DNA of 64,000 bases from positions 12,152,001-12,216,000 of the forward strand of contig OZ024742.1 of NCBI GenBank assembly GCA_964016885.1. Direction: 5' to 3'. Position 1 is the stretch's first letter. Each line of letters starts with the position of its first letter. Shown here piece by piece: positions 2,481 to 59,170 of this stretch. The stretch is from Eledone cirrhosa. Lineage: Eukaryota. The notes under the pieces are model-generated. The model saw only the letters and a program-made list of their open reading frames with translations. It was not told the DNA's origin and ran no database searches. The translations under genes and the position numbers were made by a program.

Positions 2481-5400
2481 TGTTGATTTTTACTTATGTA
2501 AAACAACTGTGATAGAATAATTCTTATTACAAATGAAATATAATATTACAGTTTTGACCCTCAGCAGGCGACAACGCATCAAATTACGGCATAGGGCCCT
2601 AATATTTAATATTTAATTTTGGATCAGAAATGTTATAGTCGAAAAAGAGAAAAATGGCTAAGTTGACAGACAGGCAAATAATTTCACCACCAACACCACC
2701 ACCGCCACCATCACCACTATCACGCCAAAAACTCTAGTCAAGTTACCTCAACTTCTATTTCTACTTCAACCTCAACACCATCACTACAGTACTACGATCA
2801 CATCACCACCACAACCACTGCCTCATTATCGCTACCGCCGCTATTCTCTCCCACTACCTCCTGCTAAGTACTACTAGCACATCACCACCACTGCCTCATT
2901 ATCGCTACCGCCGCTATTCTCTCCCACTACCCCCTGCTAAGACAGGCATCATAGTATTCCTACTAAATGAGGAAGGTATCAAAAGATATAGACAGATTTG
3001 ATGACCCGGTCAAAAAATCAAAAATCAAAAATCAAAATCAAAACAGCACAGCAGCAACGAAAAATGCAAAGAAAAGAAAAAAGAAAAGAAAAACAAACAA
3101 ACAGACAGACAAGCAAAAAAACTAAGTCAAACATTCAAACATTACATTACAATGAAACTTATGCTTATTTTTTTGTGGGGGGGGGTTACCTATTTGTTTG
3201 TTTGTTTGTTTATTTATGTTCGCCTACAGCGTGATGGAGCCACGCTAAAATCACCGAGGGTGATCAAATCACCGGTGGTTATGTAACCATACATTCACCA
3301 ATCCTCGATAAGAGTGTTTCAATGTCGAACCTAAACAGTTCGAATAACGATGAAAGGGAGACTGGAATGTCATGTGAAAGACTCTCACCCAGCAGGTGCT
3401 CCCTGGCCCAGCAGAAGGGACCTGGCTGTCAACCAAATACTGCTGGTGTTGGAGGAAGAAGAAGGAAAGGGACAAGAAACAACTGGACGAAAGAATTGAA
3501 TAGAACTGTTATGCAATGTTACCTGAAGAGTAACCCCAAGGAAAAAGGCTATAGGAAACGGATGCATAATGGCTATAGGAAACGGATCTATTTAAATTAG
3601 ATGAACAAAAATTGGCCGGGCAGACTCGGGTAATAAGAACTAATGGGTGGATAAGAGAGCTGGAACAGGAGGAACTCAGCAGAGAGATTAGATTGGAAAT
3701 GGAGGGTGGAGTAGGCCAGGCAAACGAGCCAGTGGGAGATGAAGGAGAAGAGGTTGAGAGAACGGAGGAAGCATCCGAAGCAGACAATGATCTGAATGCT
3801 GAAATAAATAATTGTTTCTACTTTAGGCACAAGGCCAGCAATTACTCAGTGCATTACTGGTACTTTATTTTATCGACCCCGTAAGGATGAAAGGCAAAGT
3901 CAACCTCGGCGGGATTTGAACTCAGATCGTAAAGGGACGTAACTATGCTGGAAAGCATGGCATCCGACCCTCTACCGATACTGCCAATCCACCGCCCAAT
4001 GCTGAAATAAATAATACCTGGAACAAAGAAACGGCCATTGAGGAAATGAATGTTGACGGGCTAGGACAAGATTTGGTTGATATCCTAAACTTAGTGGTAG
4101 ATGAAATGAACAATGATAGTGGGAAACCTATGAACCTAAGATTTGTAGACAGGAAAAAGTTAAAAGAAACAACAGCTAAGGTAAACAAAGTCATCCCATA
4201 CCTTGAGGCGAGGAACCTTCACCAGTGCAACAATATCCTCAAAGCAACAACAAATGCGTTGAGGAAATTACTTGGCATAAAAGCGAGAGGAAACAACAAA
4301 CAAGAAAGATCAGAACCTTGGTGGAAGAAACGACTTAATGGTCAAAACATGGAAATGATAAATGACATTGGAAAGCTTGAGTCCCTACTGAATGGGACAC
4401 TAAAAAATATAGACACTAAAAATAGACTGGAAATAAAGTACAAAACTAGGTGGAAAAAGCTAAATACTATCATAGAGGAACTGAAGCAACGCATTGTAGC
4501 AAAGAGTGCAAAAATTAGGCGATGCGAGAGCAGAGTCAGTCAGTATAGGCAGAACCGCATGTTTGACAACAACCAGAAGATGTTGTTTGGACAGCTTGAA
4601 GGGAAAGAAAGAGGCAACGACTTGATCCCTGAGGCGGAACAAACTAAGACATTCTGGAGAGGAATATGGGAGCAGGATGTTAAACATAATGACCAGGCAG
4701 TGTAGATTGAGACAGTACAAAAGGAGATTAGTGAACAGGCACACCAACAAACTAATTTGAGTATCACAGTTGAAACTCTTAAGGAGCAGGCTAAAAAACT
4801 AACCAACTGGAAACCACCAGGCCCAGATGGTGTGCATGGATATTGGATTAAAAATGTAACATCCCTCCACCCGAAACTGACAACCATGTTCAATGACTGC
4901 TTGATGTCAGGTGAGGTACCAGAGTGGTTGACAAAAGGTACCACAGTTCTGGTAATGAAAGACCGAATCAAGCGTAATGATTTTACCAACTATAGACCTA
5001 TCACATGTCTGTCCGTAATGTGGAAACTGTTGAATTAGTGTCTGAGGAAATCTACCATCACACAAACAACTTGTTACCGGACGAACAGAAAGGATGCCGA
5101 AAGAATTCCCGTGGTACAAAGGACCAGTTACTTATTGATAAGATGGTAATGAGGAATTGCAAAAGGAGACACACTGGCCTTGCCATGGGATGGATAGACT
5201 ACAAAAAGGCATTTGACATGGTGCCGCATTCTTGGATACCAAAACCCTAGAGATCTTCAAGGTGGCAGATAACATCAGACAGTCGTTGGGCAAAAGTATG
5301 AAGTCCTGGGAAATAGAGTTAACATCAGCTGGAGAATCCTTGGGAGGAGTGAAGATCAAGAGAGGTATCTTCTAGGGAGATAGTCTGTCCCCTCTGTTGT

Positions 5401-24438: not shown

Positions 24439-24599
24439 GTAATAATAATAAATTTGAAGACTAAAATCTTCCTCCGGTTGCAACGTTTTTTGAAATATCC
24501 ACTTCTGCGTTTACAGATTGACTTTGTTAGTTTCAGAAGATCCCGTTAAGGGTGAAAGCAGCGATTCTTTGCTTAAACTTTAATCTGTTATTTTAATAA

Positions 24600-24600
<1 letters not shown>
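24439..24600 (+). mobile_element. Internally deleted mini-copy of the 44.6-47.0 kb PLE; CAGAAGA-core HHR at 24529-24579
   Basis: 5' cap gtaataataataaatttgaagactaaaat fused to cttcctccggttgc..ttttaataa; (TA)n on both sides. Confidence 0.85.
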
Positions 24601-25164: not shown

Positions 25165-25553
25165 TGTTTCTACTATTGGCACAAGGTCAGCAATTAACCA
25201 GTGTATTACTGGTACTTTAGTTTATCTACCCCGTAAGGATGAAAGGCAAAGTTAACCTCGGCGGGATTTGAACTCAGAATGGCAAGGGCCGTAACTCCAT
25301 GCGTCAAAGCATGGCGTCCGACCCTCTACCGATACTGCCAATTCACCGCCCTTGATATTTATATAACTGTTTCTACTTTTGGCACAAGGCCAGCAATTAC
25401 CCAGTGTATTACTGGTACTTTATTTTATCGACCCCGTAAGGATGAATGGCAAAGTTAACCTCGTCGGGATTTGAACTCAGAATGGAAAGGGCTGCAACTC
25501 TTTGCGTCAAAGCATCGCGTCCGACCCTCTACCGATACTGCCAATCCACCACC
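25165..25553 (-). mobile_element. Tandem SINE pair (25165-25351, 25368-25553) bounded by three gatatttat(at)aa repeats
   Basis: Seen directly. Confidence 0.9.
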
Positions 25554-44046: not shown

Positions 44047-44157
44047 CAGTGTGTGTGTGTATTATAAGAACAGATTAAAGTTTAAGGAAAGGATTGCTGC
44101 TTTCACCCTTAACGGGACCTTTAGAAGATCCCGTTAAGCGTGAAAACAGTGATTCTC

Positions 44158-44321
44158 GGTGAGCGACAGACGCCATGCTTTGCAGCATAGAGTTATGACC
44201 CTTTGCTTTCTGAGTTCAAACCCCACCGAGGTTAGCTTTTCCTTTCATCCTTACGGAGTCGATAAAATAAAGTACCAGGAATACACTGGTATTTGCTGGC
44301 CTTGTGCCAAAAGAAGAAACA
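44158..44321 (+). mobile_element. SINE copy, preceded by a family D foldback fragment (44060-44156)
   Basis: B box and central domain. Confidence 0.8.
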
Positions 44322-44424: not shown

Positions 44425-44577
44425 CGTTATTCCGGGTTGAATCGGAGATAACCACAGTAAGTAAGGTACTCAATACATTGCAGAGTATAAAAGTTTTAAT
44501 ATAGATGAATCATCAGGAATCTCATGATTCCTGATGATTTCTAAAGAATGAAACAGTTCTAGTCCTGTAGAATCTCA

Positions 44578-44585
<8 letters not shown>
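44425..44585 (+). ncRNA. Family C-related pLTR foldback with intact type I HHR at 44526-44574
   Basis: gattc-CTGATGA-tttctaaagaat-GAAA-cagttctagtcctg-TA-gaatc. Confidence 0.85.
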
Positions 44586-44633
<48 letters not shown>

Positions 44634-44645
44634 ATAATAATAAAA

Positions 44646-45980
44646 TTGAAGACTAAAATCCAAAGAGGGCTCGATAAGGAAAATATACCACTTCTCCTTA
44701 GAGCTATCAATTTCGCTAAAACACTCACAGTGGTTAAGGATTTTGAAGTTGATGTCATCCTTAATGCCCGAAAGTCGGTGATTAATTTCGACGACTCTAT
44801 TTGGATTAAAAAATCAAATAGTACCCCATTCGATGTGAGTATGGGCGCCAGTGACTCTGCGGAGGTTACTGATCTTATTGGCCTTTTCCTTCTTTTCTCT
44901 ATCAAGGACGAATTCCCCAACGCGGGCGGTGGTTTGTACCGTGACGATGGTCTTTTGACCATGACTAAGTGCGGACCTCGTGCTTGCGACAGATTCAGAA
45001 AAGAACTCACAGCCTTCTTTAAAGGCTTCAACCTCTCTATACAGGTTGAGGCCAATCTCTCGGTCGTTAATTACCTCGACGTTACCCTCAATTTACTGAA
45101 TGGGTTGTATTACCCGTATAGAAAGCCGAATGATACGCTTAATTACATAAGTAAGCATTCCAACCATCCTGCCAGCATAACCAAGAACCTGGTAAGAAAC
45201 GTTTCGTTGAGGCTTTCCCGTCTTTCCACCAACAAGCGCATTTTCAACGACCATTCCACTTATTACAATGAAGCTCTTGCGCGAAGTGGATTTGTCGATA
45301 AGGTAGCATATACAGAGTACGAAAATAGACCTAGAAGAAATAGATCCCGTCGCATTTGTTGGTTTAAAACACCATATAATATGGAGGTGGCCACACCATT
45401 AGCTAAGATCTTTCTTTCATTTATTACGAAGCATTTTCCCCCTACACATAAACATAGTAAAATTTTTAATAGAAATACTATTAAAATTTCTTACTCTACG
45501 ACTCCTAACCTTGCACATAACATCACAGCTTCAAATTTGGCTAAACTACCTAGCCGTAGGAACACGTGCAACCCTGTAGTTAGTACTAACTGTAATTGTA
45601 GGAATCGGGCTGATTGCCCCCTATCCGGGAAATGCCTCTCTAATAACATTGTCTACAAATGTAAGGTTGTAACACCCACGTCCCGTAGGGCCTACATAGG
45701 GTTAACCGCCAATAGTTTCAAGCAGCGTCTTTACATGCATACCCATTCTTTTCGTTACCCTCTGAGAAGGAATATGACGTCACTTTCAGCTTATATCTGG
45801 AGTCTAAAAGACAACCACACCCAATATAAGTTACACTGGCAGATCCTAGCTAGGGCTAGATCGTATAACGGAAATAAAAGACCATGTGACCTCTGCGCCG
45901 CTGAGGCCCTGGAAATACTCTCCGCCACAGACCACATCTTAAACAAAAAATTTGAGGCAATTTCGGCTTGTAAACATTAA
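44646..45980 (+). CDS. PLE reverse transcriptase C-half plus GIY-YIG endonuclease, stop-free; the first 13-14 codons come from the cap, not RT
   Basis: MGASDSAE, LYRDD, NYLDVTL, SNHP, CNC-x5-CPL-x3-C linker, VYKC..YIG, CDLC, LNK..CKH. Confidence 0.9.
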   Translation: MKTKIQRGLDKENIPLLLRAINFAKTLTVVKDFEVDVILNARKSVINFDDSIWIKKSNSTPFDVSMGASDSAEVTDLIGLFLLFSIKDEFPNAGGGLYRDDGLLTMTKCGPRACDRFRKELTAFFKGFNLSIQVEANLSVVNYLDVTLNLLNGLYYPYRKPNDTLNYISKHSNHPASITKNLVRNVSLRLSRLSTNKRIFNDHSTYYNEALARSGFVDKVAYTEYENRPRRNRSRRICWFKTPYNMEVATPLAKIFLSFITKHFPPTHKHSKIFNRNTIKISYSTTPNLAHNITASNLAKLPSRRNTCNPVVSTNCNCRNRADCPLSGKCLSNNIVYKCKVVTPTSRRAYIGLTANSFKQRLYMHTHSFRYPLRRNMTSLSAYIWSLKDNHTQYKLHWQILARARSYNGNKRPCDLCAAEALEILSATDHILNKKFEAISACKH

Positions 45981-46959
45981 TTGCACAAAACTTTCCTGTA
46001 TTACAGCCCCACGTTTTACCCTAACGGATAGCACGATCTATACGTGGATATTTTACGTCTTGATGTGGGAGCTAAGTATATGTTTTGTTTATTCCTTTAC
46101 TTATTTGCATAGGTAAGTATATATTACCCGTATATTTTGTGAAGGTATGTATACCTTCTCGTACGTATATTTGACTGTTATAGCGTATAATTTTTACATA
46201 TTCTGGTATTTAGGGTTTGGCTATGTGTATACGGGAATTTTGCGTCCGCGTGAGTGTGCAGGTTCGTACGTATGGTGGGTGTGTGTATATGTGTACTTCT
46301 TGTTTTAGTTGACTTACGTCTCCGAACATTCGTGTATTTATATGTAGGTATGCGTGTGCGCTTGTTATATACGTATTTATTTACTTATATACGTTTATAT
46401 AATTATTTATTTATTTGTACACAAGCATACACACACACACATATTTATATGTGCGTGGTTTTGTATACCCATGGTAAGGTTTTGCTTATGCTTGTGTATG
46501 TACGTATCTGTTTGCGTGTATGTATTTATTTGTTTCTATTACTTCTGTATTGTATTTATTTACTTTGTTCTTAACTCTGTAGCGGAGATTCATTTGGTCT
46601 CCTAGTTAGAATTTTAGTCTACGATTTCTGCTATACCATTTACGTGGTTTTGTCTTTGCGTGCTATTGTTCTCCACGCTCCACATATGACTTATTATCTT
46701 CGTTTTTTCGTTCATTGCCAGAGAACGTCTCTATGCACCACCTAAGAGAACATTAGTCTACGACCTCTTTTATACCATAATCGTGGTTTTGTCTTTGCGC
46801 GTAATTGTTTTTCACCGCTCCTATTAATGACGTATAATTCGTTTTTTCCCGTTCTTTGCCAGCGAATGTTTCCACGAACCAAAGTATCGTCTTCCTGTCT
46901 TCCTCCGGTTGCAACGTTTTTTGAAATATCCAGTTCTGCGTTTACAGATTGACTTTGTT

Positions 46960-47010
46960 AGTTTCAGAAGATCCCGTTAAGGGTGAAAGCAGCGATTCTT
47001 TGCTTAAACT
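46960..47010 (+). ncRNA. Type I hammerhead-like motif with variant core CAGAAGA (family D)
   Basis: agttt-CAGAAGA-t ccc gttaa ggg t-GAAA-gcag cgattct ttgc-TT-aaact; distal stem I acagattga/ttaatctgt. Confidence 0.75.
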
Positions 47011-47026
47011 TTAATCTGTTATTTTA

Positions 47027-47062
<36 letters not shown>

Positions 47063-47063
<1 letters not shown>

Positions 47064-47206
47064 TAATAATAATAAAATTGAAGACTAAAATCCAAAGAGG
47101 GCTCGATAAGGAAAATATATATCAAATATATGTTAGTTTCAGAAGATCCCGTTAAGGGTGAAAGCAGCGATTCTTTGCTTAAACTTTAATCTGTTATTTT
47201 AATAAA
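47063..47206 (+). mobile_element. Mini-copy of family D (cap plus HHR end)
   Basis: Cap 47063-47131 fused to gttagtttcagaaga..aataaa. Confidence 0.85.
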
Positions 47207-53232: not shown

Positions 53233-53235
<3 letters not shown>

Positions 53236-53385
53236 ATAATAATAAATTTAAAGACTAAAATCCAAAGAGGGCTCGATAAGGATAAATATATATCAAATAT
53301 ATAAGAATCGTAGAGGAAATATTTATTAAAATAACAGATTAAAGATTAATTCCGTTCATTGCCAGAGAACGTCTCTATGAACCAC
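53233..53385 (+). mobile_element. Rearranged family D fragment: cap, inverted 3' tip and 3' UTR piece
   Basis: Cap matches 47063-47131; tttattaaaataacagattaaag inverts the 3' tip; cgttcattgccagagaacgtctctatg matches 46709-46735. Confidence 0.8.
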
Positions 53386-58900: not shown

Positions 58901-58933
<33 letters not shown>

Positions 58934-58938
<5 letters not shown>

Positions 58939-59170
58939 TAAAATAACAGATTAAAGTTTAAGCAAACAATCGCTGCTTTCACCCTTAACGGGATCTTCTG
59001 AAACTAACAAAGTTAATCTGTGAACACAGAAGTGAATATTTCAAAAAACGTTGCAACCGGAGGAAGACAGGAAGACGATACTTTGGTTCGTGCAAACGTT
59101 CCCTGGCAAAGAACGGGAAAAAACGAATATAATACGTCATTATTTGGAGCGGTGACAAAAGACAAAACCT
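58934..59170 (-). mobile_element. Family D 3' end; CAGAAGA HHR at 58955-59005
   Basis: Reverse complement of 46785-47030. Confidence 0.88.

What the first reader, a model, noticed from the sequence alone, without database searches (positions are those of the whole stretch)
44631..47206. PLE copies keep a fixed 5' cap after (TA)n and show internal deletion, not simple 5' truncation
Seen: four insertions (24439, 44631, 47063, 53233) begin at the same base after (TA)n with GTAATAATAATAAA(A/T)TT(G/A)AAGACTAAAATC. Each runs 30-85 nt, then jumps to a different downstream point: mid-RT at 44688, pLTR at 24468, HHR at 47132, inverted tip at 53320. Three end at the same TTTTAATAA-(TA)n. Established: non-LTR copies normally truncate randomly at the 5' end. 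Inference: both target ends may prime on a tandem or circular template that contains its own (UA)n, giving cap-plus-tail mini-elements of about 150 bp.
Basis: partly seen in the sequence, partly recalled or inferred. Interest (0 to 1): 0.75.

Follow-up and report, generated by a model that had tools for sequence, protein, structure and literature searches.

The report
Head-to-head Penelope insertions with one-sided tail
The shared "cap" is the upside-down end piece (the known "tail") of a Penelope-like jumping gene, so these insertions are two truncated copies joined head to head inside TA repeats, an architecture already described for this class and likely made by copying the element's RNA from both cut DNA ends.

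Summary
The 30-nt cap occurs 4 times in the window (0 expected) and 16,814 times in the 3.0-Gb genome. The reading as a sense-strand 5' cap plus internal deletion does not hold.

In full-length copies the reverse complement of the cap is the first 88 nt after the pLTR end, 45 nt before the ATG. At insertion ends the cap is therefore antisense to the adjoining ORF.

In 96 of the first 100 genomic caps it abuts (TA)n or TA-rich sequence. All run 88->1 and then back into the inverted 3' end.

Each insertion is two 5'-truncated arms joined head to head. One arm starts at the tail end, the other at the canonical end TTTTAATAAA; this held in 62 of 63 copies with both ends visible.

This is the published Penelope-like-element unit of inverted copy plus one-sided tail (PMC3846280, PMC8557442). 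Its in vitro basis is also published: both DNA strands are cut and extended, and two internal RT start sites bracket the tail (PMC11167929).

The ORF shows Hydra-clade motifs and a TERT-like fold. The "HHR" has a non-canonical core and no Rfam match. It is a new member of a known kind, of low interest.

The parts
24439..24468 (-). Tail arm of a mini insertion: antisense copy of reference positions U 88->59 (30 nt), directly after (TA)n
24467..24600 (+). Forward arm U 3110->3243, ending TTTTAATAAA-(TA)n; overlaps the tail arm by 2 nt at the junction
   Evidence: 99% identity to the reference copy
44582..44630 (.). (TA)n target tract on the left of the long copy
44631..44687 (-).
   Evidence: 100% identity
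44686..47031 (+). Forward 5'-truncated arm U 917->3243: C-terminal 430 codons of the RT-EN ORF (44688-45980, stop included), then 3'UTR/pLTR with two ~130-nt internal repeats, ending TTTTAATAAA
   Evidence: 97% identity to the reference copy
46965..46988 (+). HHR-like motif CAGAAGA-T-CCC-GTTAA-GGG-T-GAAA (U 3177-3200), with A where the hammerhead core has U4; the same motif lies at 24534-24557 and 47140-47163
   Evidence: only relaxed-regex match; no Rfam match
47032..47062 (.). (TA)n tract between the two neighbouring insertions
47063..47131 (-). Tail arm: antisense copy of U 88->20 (69 nt)
   Evidence: 100% identity
47131..47206 (+). Forward arm U 3168->3243, ending TTTTAATAAA-(TA)n; its start falls in the family-wide hot spot U 3166-3180
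53233..53349 (-). Tail arm: whole tail U 88->1 plus the inverted 3' tip U 3243->3216 (117 nt)
   Evidence: 95% identity
53353..53385 (+). Short forward fragment U 2921->2953 after 3 nt of filler; the copy then breaks off into unrelated sequence
58931..59159 (-). Same family, single arm without tail and without cap (U 3243->3020): (TA)n on the 3'-end side, non-TA sequence at the truncated end; a simple 5' truncation
44060..44156 (.). Older (about 90% identity) fold-back remnant of the same family, arms U 3241->3180 and 3178->3211, no tail, cut off by a tRNA-like SINE

Best explanation
The cap is the reverse complement of the 88-nt 'tail' of a Hydra-clade Penelope-like retrotransposon, so each insertion is two 5'-truncated copies joined head to head in a (TA)n tract. 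This likely arose because both cut DNA ends primed reverse transcription at two start sites 88 nt apart on the element's RNA.

Shown here:
- In tandem or full-length copies the unit reads ...TTTTAATAAA | 88-nt tail | TATTTGGCTCC...ATG.
- At insertion ends one arm begins at the tail end (U 88) and runs antisense. The other arm ends at the canonical end (U 3243).
- Both arms stop at variable points and meet with 0-8 nt of overlap or a few filler bases.

Inferred by analogy with the in vitro work on an Anolis Poseidon element (PMC11167929):
- The RT-EN nicks both strands of the TA repeat.
- Each 3'-OH primes cDNA synthesis internally on a multi-unit RNA, at either of the two start sites.
- Both cDNAs abort early, and host repair joins them through microhomology.
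For: Orientation and origin.
- In L009, whose longest open frame is 713 codons with an ATG-to-stop ORF of 709 aa, the reverse complement of the cap lies directly after the upstream pLTR end and 45 nt before the ATG.
- 4 of the first 100 genomic caps sit in this internal context. The other 96 are terminal: 92 next to (TA)n and 4 next to TA-ish sequence.

Arms.
- All 96 terminal caps run U 88->1 and then 3243->downwards.
- The tail arm is under 88 nt in 26 copies, 88-170 nt in 34 and over 170 nt in 36, up to 3268 nt.
- 68 of the 96 have an adjoining forward arm.
- Those 68 show 65 distinct junction pairs, so the junctions were made anew at each insertion.
- Junction overlap is 1-8 nt in 38 copies and 0 in 13; 17 have filler.

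One tail per insertion.
- Cap-anchored sample: the other end is the tail-less U 3243 in 51 copies, carries a tail in 0, and was not seen in 17. L075 was re-read by hand: its adjoining arm ends at U 3238.
- ORF-anchored sample: 11 of 12 two-armed copies with both ends visible have exactly one tail. L023 has two.
- Among long arms, 14 end with the tail and 12 without.

Genome-wide exact counts fit roughly equal use of the two ends: 16,814 cap starts, 13,898 tail-less ends on (TA)n and 13,581 read-throughs of the 3243|1 junction.

Single arms that end in the tail next to (TA)n and are truncated against non-TA sequence (L019, L022) show that the tail end is a priming end.

The two start sites lie in similar ~65-nt modules. 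Only 13 of 19,106 random window pairs and 2 of 5000 shuffles score as high. The 18 nt after each site are TATTTGCTCTACGGTT and TATTTGGCTCCTTCGGTT; 3 of 5000 random pairs score as high.

A second, unrelated-looking family at window 44426-44581 has the same build, with a ~75-nt tail on one arm only.

Literature.
- A 30-40-bp tail is often present at only one end, and the Hydra clade inserts in (TA)n (PMC8557442, passages and section 11).
- Both strands are cleaved and extended, there are two internal RT start sites, and the tail is the stretch between them (PMC11167929, main text).
Against: - There is no RNA or biochemical evidence for this family, and no RNA run was available.
- In vitro the two start sites were used alike on both strands (PMC11167929). 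The near-obligatory pairing of one tailed and one tail-less arm (62 of 63) is therefore not predicted by independent priming and needs an extra, untested coupling.
- In many copies both arms contain the same 3' sequence. One example is L114, with arms U 88->1395 and 2257->3243. This requires a multi-unit RNA, two RNAs or strand displacement.
- A test for a shared template was inconclusive. Arms of one insertion differ at 79 of 2597 sites (3.0%), arms of different insertions at 598 of 16,130 (3.7%), and 252 of 2000 permutations were as low.
- Target-site duplications cannot be read in (TA)n.
- Only 100 of the 16,814 caps were examined, all from the first 42 Mb of one contig.
Confidence: 0.8

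Rival explanations
1. First reader's model. The cap is the sense-strand 5' end of the element, kept while internal sequence is deleted. Copies would be made on a tandem or circular template that carries its own (UA)n between the HHR end and the cap.
For: The cap and the 3' end are adjacent in tandem units, and copies longer than one unit exist (L009, L020, L026, L030).
Against: The cap is antisense to the adjoining ORF. In 70 of 96 terminal caps it continues into the inverted 3' end. All 9 tandem junctions hold a single TA and no (TA)n.
Confidence: 0.02
2. Fold-back self-priming. One cDNA snaps back on itself at its 3' end and copies itself, giving the inverted arm. This is the self-priming idea discussed for Adineta vaga Penelope elements.
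For: 8 of 68 two-armed copies are symmetric to within 4 nt (L040, L067, L071, L074, L096, L099, L109, L110). The hot spot lies at the near-palindrome TTCAGAA. PMC3846280 discusses palindromes at inverted junctions as signs of self-priming (passage).
Against: 60 of 68 junctions are asymmetric, for example inverted arm to U 3169 joined to forward arm from U 700 in L050. A fold-back copy would give both arms the same outer end, but 62 of 63 differ by the 88-nt tail.
Confidence: 0.07
3. One continuous cDNA that switches from the sense RNA to an antisense transcript. The cap would then mark the fixed 5' end of that antisense RNA (run-off), not a priming site.
For: It would explain a fixed outer end and exactly one tail per insertion. 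PMC3846280 raises antisense templates and bidirectional promoter motifs in pLTRs (passage).
Against: Single arms that end in the tail next to (TA)n and are truncated against non-TA flanks (L019, L022) look like arms primed at the tail end. Tailed and tail-less ends are about equally common among long arms (14 against 12). No antisense transcript is known here.
Confidence: 0.08
4. The ~150-bp cap-plus-end units are a separate non-autonomous family (SINE-like or retrozyme-like) that amplifies as a unit.
For: They are very numerous: 26 of 48 complete two-armed copies are 200 bp or shorter. A 2026 preprint argues that animal retrozymes derive from PLE pLTRs (10.64898/2026.07.22.740005, abstract only).
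Against: 65 distinct junction pairs among 68 copies mean there is no shared master junction. There are no tandem HHR monomers and no canonical HHR.
Confidence: 0.03

Closest known systems
Insertion unit of endonuclease-positive Penelope-like elements: pLTR, adjoining inverted 5'-truncated copy, one-sided 'tail' (Arkhipova et al. 2013, PMC3846280; Craig et al. 2021, PMC8557442)
   Same: Tandem pLTR-body-pLTR copies. A head-to-head inverted truncated copy. A tail that continues the body sequence after the pLTR end and sits on only one of the two inverted ends. Microhomology at the inner junction. An AT-rich or (TA)n target.
   Different: The tail is 88 nt, against the 30-40 nt (31 bp in Adineta vaga) reported. 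Many inverted arms stop inside the tail, so only a 30-85-nt 'cap' is left, and that invited the misreading.
Internal initiation of reverse transcription at two adjacent sites by the Anolis Poseidon PLE in vitro (Frangieh et al. 2024, PMC11167929)
   Same: Two cDNA start points with the tail between them. Both DNA strands serve as primers. The template is a multi-unit RNA. The hammerhead is not needed for insertion.
   Different: A different clade (Hydra, not Penelope/Poseidon). The start sites here are each followed by TA and lie in two similar ~65-nt modules, whereas the paper reports an AC-rich stem-loop with no homology to the target. In this genome the two sites are almost always used as a pair (62 of 63), which the paper does not report.
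Hydra clade of C-terminal EN+ PLEs (Craig et al. 2021, section 11)
   Same: (TA)n insertion, one ORF with a C-terminal GIY-YIG endonuclease, a CxCX5C linker, a DKT motif, RW(K/R), CxxC near E, CxH near N, and no CCHH.
   Different: The unit is 3243 nt, whereas the clade is described as generally under 3 kb. No canonical hammerhead was found, whereas the paper says they were readily detected in Hydra families. Phylogenetic placement was not tested.
Twin priming of human L1, which gives 5' inversions (Ostertag and Kazazian 2001; recalled, not read here)
   Same: Two target 3'-OH ends prime two cDNAs, which are joined head to head through microhomology.
   Different: In L1 the second priming site is internal and variable, and the inverted piece comes from upstream RNA. 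Here both arms start at fixed sites near the 3' end and usually contain the same 3' sequence.

Membership tests
Penelope-like elements, EN+ (canonical insertion architecture) | Telomerase-like reverse transcriptase | tested here: met
   AlphaFold2 model of the 709-aa ORF has pLDDT 89.3 and pTM 0.85. The best Foldseek PDB hits are TERT chains (3du5_A at E 1.2e-08, also 6zdq_A and 6usr_A), followed by retron, DRT, group II and LINE-1 RTs. LYRDDG and F.QFD are invariant in 29 relatives. Sequence libraries gave nothing: Pfam, NCBIfam, and PDB by sequence and by profile.
Penelope-like elements, EN+ (canonical insertion architecture) | C-terminal GIY-YIG endonuclease in the same ORF | tested here: met
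   The motifs VYKC...YIG, FK.R...H, E and N are conserved at the C terminus. Relative P0103 (40% identity, 98% coverage) matches Pfam GIY-YIG PF01541 at 26.1 bits, cut-off 22.6. The window protein itself has no Pfam hit.
Penelope-like elements, EN+ (canonical insertion architecture) | Partial tandem copies forming pseudo-LTRs | tested here: met
   L009, L020, L026 and L030 carry a truncated upstream 3' region joined to the body. The junction reads TTTTAATAAATATTTGCTCTA in 9 instances from 6 loci.
Penelope-like elements, EN+ (canonical insertion architecture) | Adjoining inverted 5'-truncated copy, with the tail on one end only | tested here: met
   68 of 96 terminal caps have an adjoining forward arm. 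62 of 63 two-armed copies with both ends seen have exactly one tail.
Penelope-like elements, EN+ (canonical insertion architecture) | Hammerhead ribozyme motif in the pLTR | tested here: not met
   No Rfam hit at gathering score or at E <= 10. No CTGANGA...GAAA on either strand. Only CAGAAGA-U-CCC-GUUAA-GGG-U-GAAA is present; it has the PLE min-HHR layout with a bulged base after A9 (PMC4209133 passages) but A at core position 4. Cleavage activity is untested.
Hydra clade of PLEs | Insertion into (TA)n | tested here: met
   92 of 100 caps are preceded by (TA)n and 4 more by TA-ish sequence. 41 of 48 complete two-armed copies also have a TA-rich far flank.
Hydra clade of PLEs | Linker CxCX5C in place of CX2-5CxxC; no CCHH in the EN; CxxC and CxH beside the conserved E and N | tested here: met
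   CNCRNRADC, PCDLCAAE and N...CKH are present and conserved in 29 relatives. No conserved C/C/H/H set lies inside the EN. This was judged against the paper's description, not against reference sequences.
Hydra clade of PLEs | DKG changed to DKT; RWK motif | tested here: met
   DKT is invariant at residues 115-117 of L010 (L009 has NKT). R37 is invariant and W38 is present in at least 90%. This family has RWR where the paper names RWK.
Hydra clade of PLEs | Groups with Hydra reference families in an RT/EN phylogeny | not tested
   No Repbase or supplement sequences were used. The closest database proteins are unnamed, 38-57% identical.
Non-LTR retrozymes / circular hammerhead RNAs | Tandem monomers each bearing an active hammerhead; circular RNA | tested here: not met
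   No canonical HHR. The mini copies are inverted pairs, not tandem monomers. Circular RNA could not be tested with these tools.

The most novel reading that the evidence does not exclude
The two reverse-transcription start sites are used as an obligatory pair. In one insertion event a dimeric RT-endonuclease would sit on a single RNA, with each protomer docked on one of two duplicated ~65-nt modules. One protomer would prime from each strand of the symmetric (TA)n break. Every two-armed insertion would then carry exactly one tail (62 of 63 here), a coupling not reported in the in vitro work.
Probability: 0.25. Interest if true: 0.55.

Novelty: new member of a known kind. Interest (0 to 1): 0.25.

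Why it matters
The main value is a corrected annotation. A repeat that looks like a conserved 5' cap with internal deletions is in fact the inverted, tailed arm of ordinary Penelope-like insertions. Repeat annotators should model this family as two arms, not as a deletion series.

The family is very young and very large:
- The 98 scored ORF copies are 95-100% identical to the query.
- The cap occurs 16,814 times.
- The ORF search returned 89,053 first-look candidates.

That makes it a convenient natural data set for the still poorly understood PLE integration step. The near-perfect rule of one tailed arm and one tail-less arm, and the duplicated module around the two start sites, are small additions that an in vitro system could test directly.

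Tried and rejected
- Hammerhead. Rfam gave no hit for the whole window at gathering score and none for the 3' end at E <= 10. The regex for the hammerhead core gave no canonical match.
- DNA search of the genome with the 65-nt cap returned only 7 scored places. That is a lower bound, so I replaced it with the pattern search.
- RNA evidence. No RNA holder was listed by the look-up of sequencing runs, and read laying was not used. Transcript ends and circular RNA are therefore untested.
- Shared-template test, arm against arm: inconclusive (3.0% against 3.7%; 252 of 2000 permutations as low).
- Arm-length asymmetry. The tail arm reaches less far upstream than the other arm in 34 copies against 15 (Wilcoxon p about 0.001). 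Counting the tail, however, it is the longer arm in 34 of 50. This decides between no models.
- Protein libraries. Pfam gave nothing for the 430-aa remnant. For the 709-aa ORF its only match was far below threshold (E 0.25; 11.8 bits against a cut-off of 27) to an unrelated family. NCBIfam and PDB by sequence gave no match, and PDB by profile gave only two matches at E 0.31 and 0.83 to unrelated proteins.
- Notes of this scan. There are none for this genome. Notes from other genomes describe the same architecture in shark and ray genomes.
- The idea that the hot spot of arm ends at U 3166-3180 is the ribozyme cut site is rejected. By the usual hammerhead numbering (recalled) the cut would fall about 40 nt further downstream, near U 3217/3218.
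- Supplement of PMC8557442. I only searched it by terms and did not take its sequences. I did not see the supplementary figures of PMC11167929, which map genomic tail ends.
Full report
**Observation**

The 30-nt pattern GTAATAATAATAAAWTTRAAGACTAAAATC matches exactly at window 24439, 44631, 47063 and 53233. All four are on the + strand and each follows (TA)n. No match occurred in 100 dinucleotide shuffles (sequence read).

The shared stretch runs 30, 57, 69 and 88 nt before the sequence jumps elsewhere. Three copies end at the same TTTTAATAAA-(TA)n.

**What the cap is**

The window lies in a 3.0-Gb genome (G000, contig C3). A search with the 430-aa ORF remnant (window 44688-45977) returned 89,053 first-look candidates. 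The 98 scored copies were 95-100% identical to the query, and many have open frames of 713 codons.

I used one natural full-length copy as a coordinate reference, U, of 3243 nt (L009, reverse complement). In that copy the reverse complement of the cap is the first 88 nt after the end of the upstream pLTR:

...TTTTAATAAA | TATTTGCTCTACGG...TTATTATTATTAC | TATTTGGCTCC...

The ATG follows 45 nt later, and the ORF is 709 aa. The cap sequence belongs to the element. At the four window sites, however, it lies antisense to the adjoining ORF or 3' region.

**Genome-wide sample**

The pattern has 16,814 exact matches in the genome and 0 in the reversed control. I parsed the first 100, all on contig C1 (30 loci, 70 fetched; parsed).

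- 92 are preceded by (TA)n, 4 by TA-ish sequence, and 4 by the element's own 5'UTR (internal context).
- All 96 terminal caps run antisense U 88->1 and, if long enough, continue 3243->downwards into the inverted 3' end.
- This tail arm is under 88 nt in 26 copies, 88-170 nt in 34 and longer in 36, up to 3268 nt.
- 68 have a forward arm directly adjoining.
- The other 28 have none. In 10 the arm is followed by (TA)n, in 16 by other sequence, and 2 run off the fetched piece.
- Junctions overlap by 1-8 nt in 38 copies, are blunt in 13 and carry filler in 17.
- The 68 junctions make 65 distinct coordinate pairs, so they were made anew at each insertion.
- The median complete two-armed insertion is 191 bp (n = 48), and 26 are 200 bp or shorter.
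- 41 of 48 also have TA-rich sequence on the far side.

The window's four copies are short-armed examples in which the inverted arm stops inside, or just beyond, the tail.

**One tail per insertion**

- Cap-anchored sample: the far end of the forward arm is the tail-less U 3243 in 51 copies, carries a tail in 0, and was not visible in 17. L075 had been flagged because of a separate downstream copy. I re-read it, and its adjoining arm ends at U 3238.
- ORF-anchored sample, 29 loci: long arms end with the tail in 14 and without it in 12. One has a partial tail, and two ends were not seen.
- In that sample, 12 two-armed copies show both ends. Five have the tail on the short inverted arm, six have it on the long forward arm, one (L023) has two tails, and none has no tail.

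Together, 62 of 63 two-armed copies have exactly one tail.

Simple single-arm truncations also exist: L014, L018, L028, and window 58931-59159.

Whole-genome exact counts agree with roughly equal use of the two ends:

| Feature | Exact matches |
|---|---|
| Cap starts | 16,814 |
| Tail-less ends on (TA)n | 13,898 |
| Read-throughs of the 3243\|1 junction | 13,581 |

**Template**

Copies longer than one unit exist (L009, L020, L026, L030). The unit junction reads TTTTAATAAATATTTGCTCTA in all 9 instances found in 6 loci, so it holds a single TA and no (TA)n.

Both cDNA start points are followed by TA and by similar sequence: TATTTGCTCTACGGTT and TATTTGGCTCCTTCGGTT. Only 3 of 5000 random pairs score as high. 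The similarity extends over about 65 nt around each site; 13 of 19,106 random window pairs and 2 of 5000 shuffles score as high.

**The element**

- The ORF has no hit above threshold in Pfam, NCBIfam or PDB by sequence or profile.
- An AlphaFold2 model built on 29 relatives is confident (pLDDT 89.3). Its best structural matches are telomerase catalytic subunits, followed by other reverse transcriptases.
- A 40%-identical relative matches Pfam GIY-YIG above the cut-off.
- The motifs given for the Hydra clade in PMC8557442 (section 11) are present and conserved in the alignment: DKT, RW(K/R), CxCX5C, CxxC by the E, CxH by the N, and no CCHH. The (TA)n target fits as well.
- Two points differ from that description. 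The unit is 3.2 kb, not under 3 kb, and there is no canonical hammerhead.
It has the layout of PLE mini-hammerheads (PMC4209133 passages) but A at core position 4.
- It has no Rfam match at E <= 10, and its activity is unknown.

**Comparison with what is known**

- PMC8557442 (passages) describes inverted 5'-truncated copies and a 30-40-bp tail, often at only one end.
- PMC11167929 (main text) shows with purified protein that a PLE cleaves and extends both DNA strands. Reverse transcription starts internally at two adjacent sites, the tail is the stretch between them, the hammerhead is dispensable in vitro, and the likely template is a multi-copy RNA.

The structure found here is this known unit. 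The most likely mechanism is the published one, here inferred by analogy.

Notes of this scan from other genomes report the same architecture in shark and ray genomes. They also report a clustering of arm ends just upstream of the hammerhead motif. The same clustering appears here:

- 17 of 68 forward starts fall in U 3166-3180.
- 12 of 96 tail-arm ends fall in the same interval.
- The motif begins at U 3177.

**What remains open**

- The near-obligatory pairing of a tailed with a tail-less arm is not explained by independent use of two start sites.
- A test of whether both arms come from one template was inconclusive.
- No RNA data were available.
- The sample is 100 of 16,814 caps from one chromosome end, plus 29 ORF-anchored loci.

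**Verdict**

Priming from both ends on a template longer than one unit fits. The sense-strand cap, the internal deletion, the internal (UA)n and the canonical HHR do not.

This is a new, very abundant member of a known kind of element with a known insertion architecture. Interest is low.

Noticed in passing
window 44426-44581: A second, different (TA)n-inserting family has the same build. An inverted arm begins with a ~75-nt tail (TACGTTATTCCGGG...). It is joined head to head to a forward arm that carries a canonical-core motif, CCTGATGA-T-TTC-TAAA-GAA-T-GAAAC, and ends CATCTATATTA-(TA)n. A 31-nt stretch of it has 7717 exact genomic matches, many as close inverted pairs. Other copies end either short or with the ~75-nt tail. 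The Rfam Hammerhead_3 match is only 14.3 bits at E 1.8.
   Followed up: partly
reference copy U 3166-3180 (window 46954-46968 and 47131-47143): The 5' ends of arms cluster here: 17 of 68 forward-arm starts and 12 of 96 tail-arm ends. That is just upstream of the HHR-like motif, at the near-palindrome TTCAGAA, and not at the predicted ribozyme cut site. 8 of 68 copies are symmetric fold-backs, most of them at this point.
   Followed up: partly
reference copy U 3199-3243 plus 1-20, against U 44-108 (L009): The two cDNA start sites sit in two similar ~65-nt modules 88 nt apart, so the tail looks like a degenerate duplicate of the element's 3' end region.
   Followed up: partly
window 45978-45980: The window copy's ORF stops at ...ISACKH*. 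Five full-length copies (L009, L010, L011, L031, L032) read on for 17 more codons to give 709 aa, so the window copy carries a premature stop near the end.
   Followed up: no
window 44157-44230 and 25200-25340: tRNA-like SINE copies (ggtgagcgacagacgccatgc...gagttcaaaccccaccgag). One of them cuts off the older fold-back remnant at 44060-44156.
   Followed up: no
(runs X5, X6): Runs labelled as two other organisms hold 37% and 27% of the element's sampled 31-mers. Near-identical copies of this family may therefore occur in related species.
   Followed up: no
G000 genome-wide: The 31-nt motif of the second family was counted 4992 times forward and 2725 times reverse. This strand imbalance is unexplained; the first family's patterns are balanced.
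   Followed up: no
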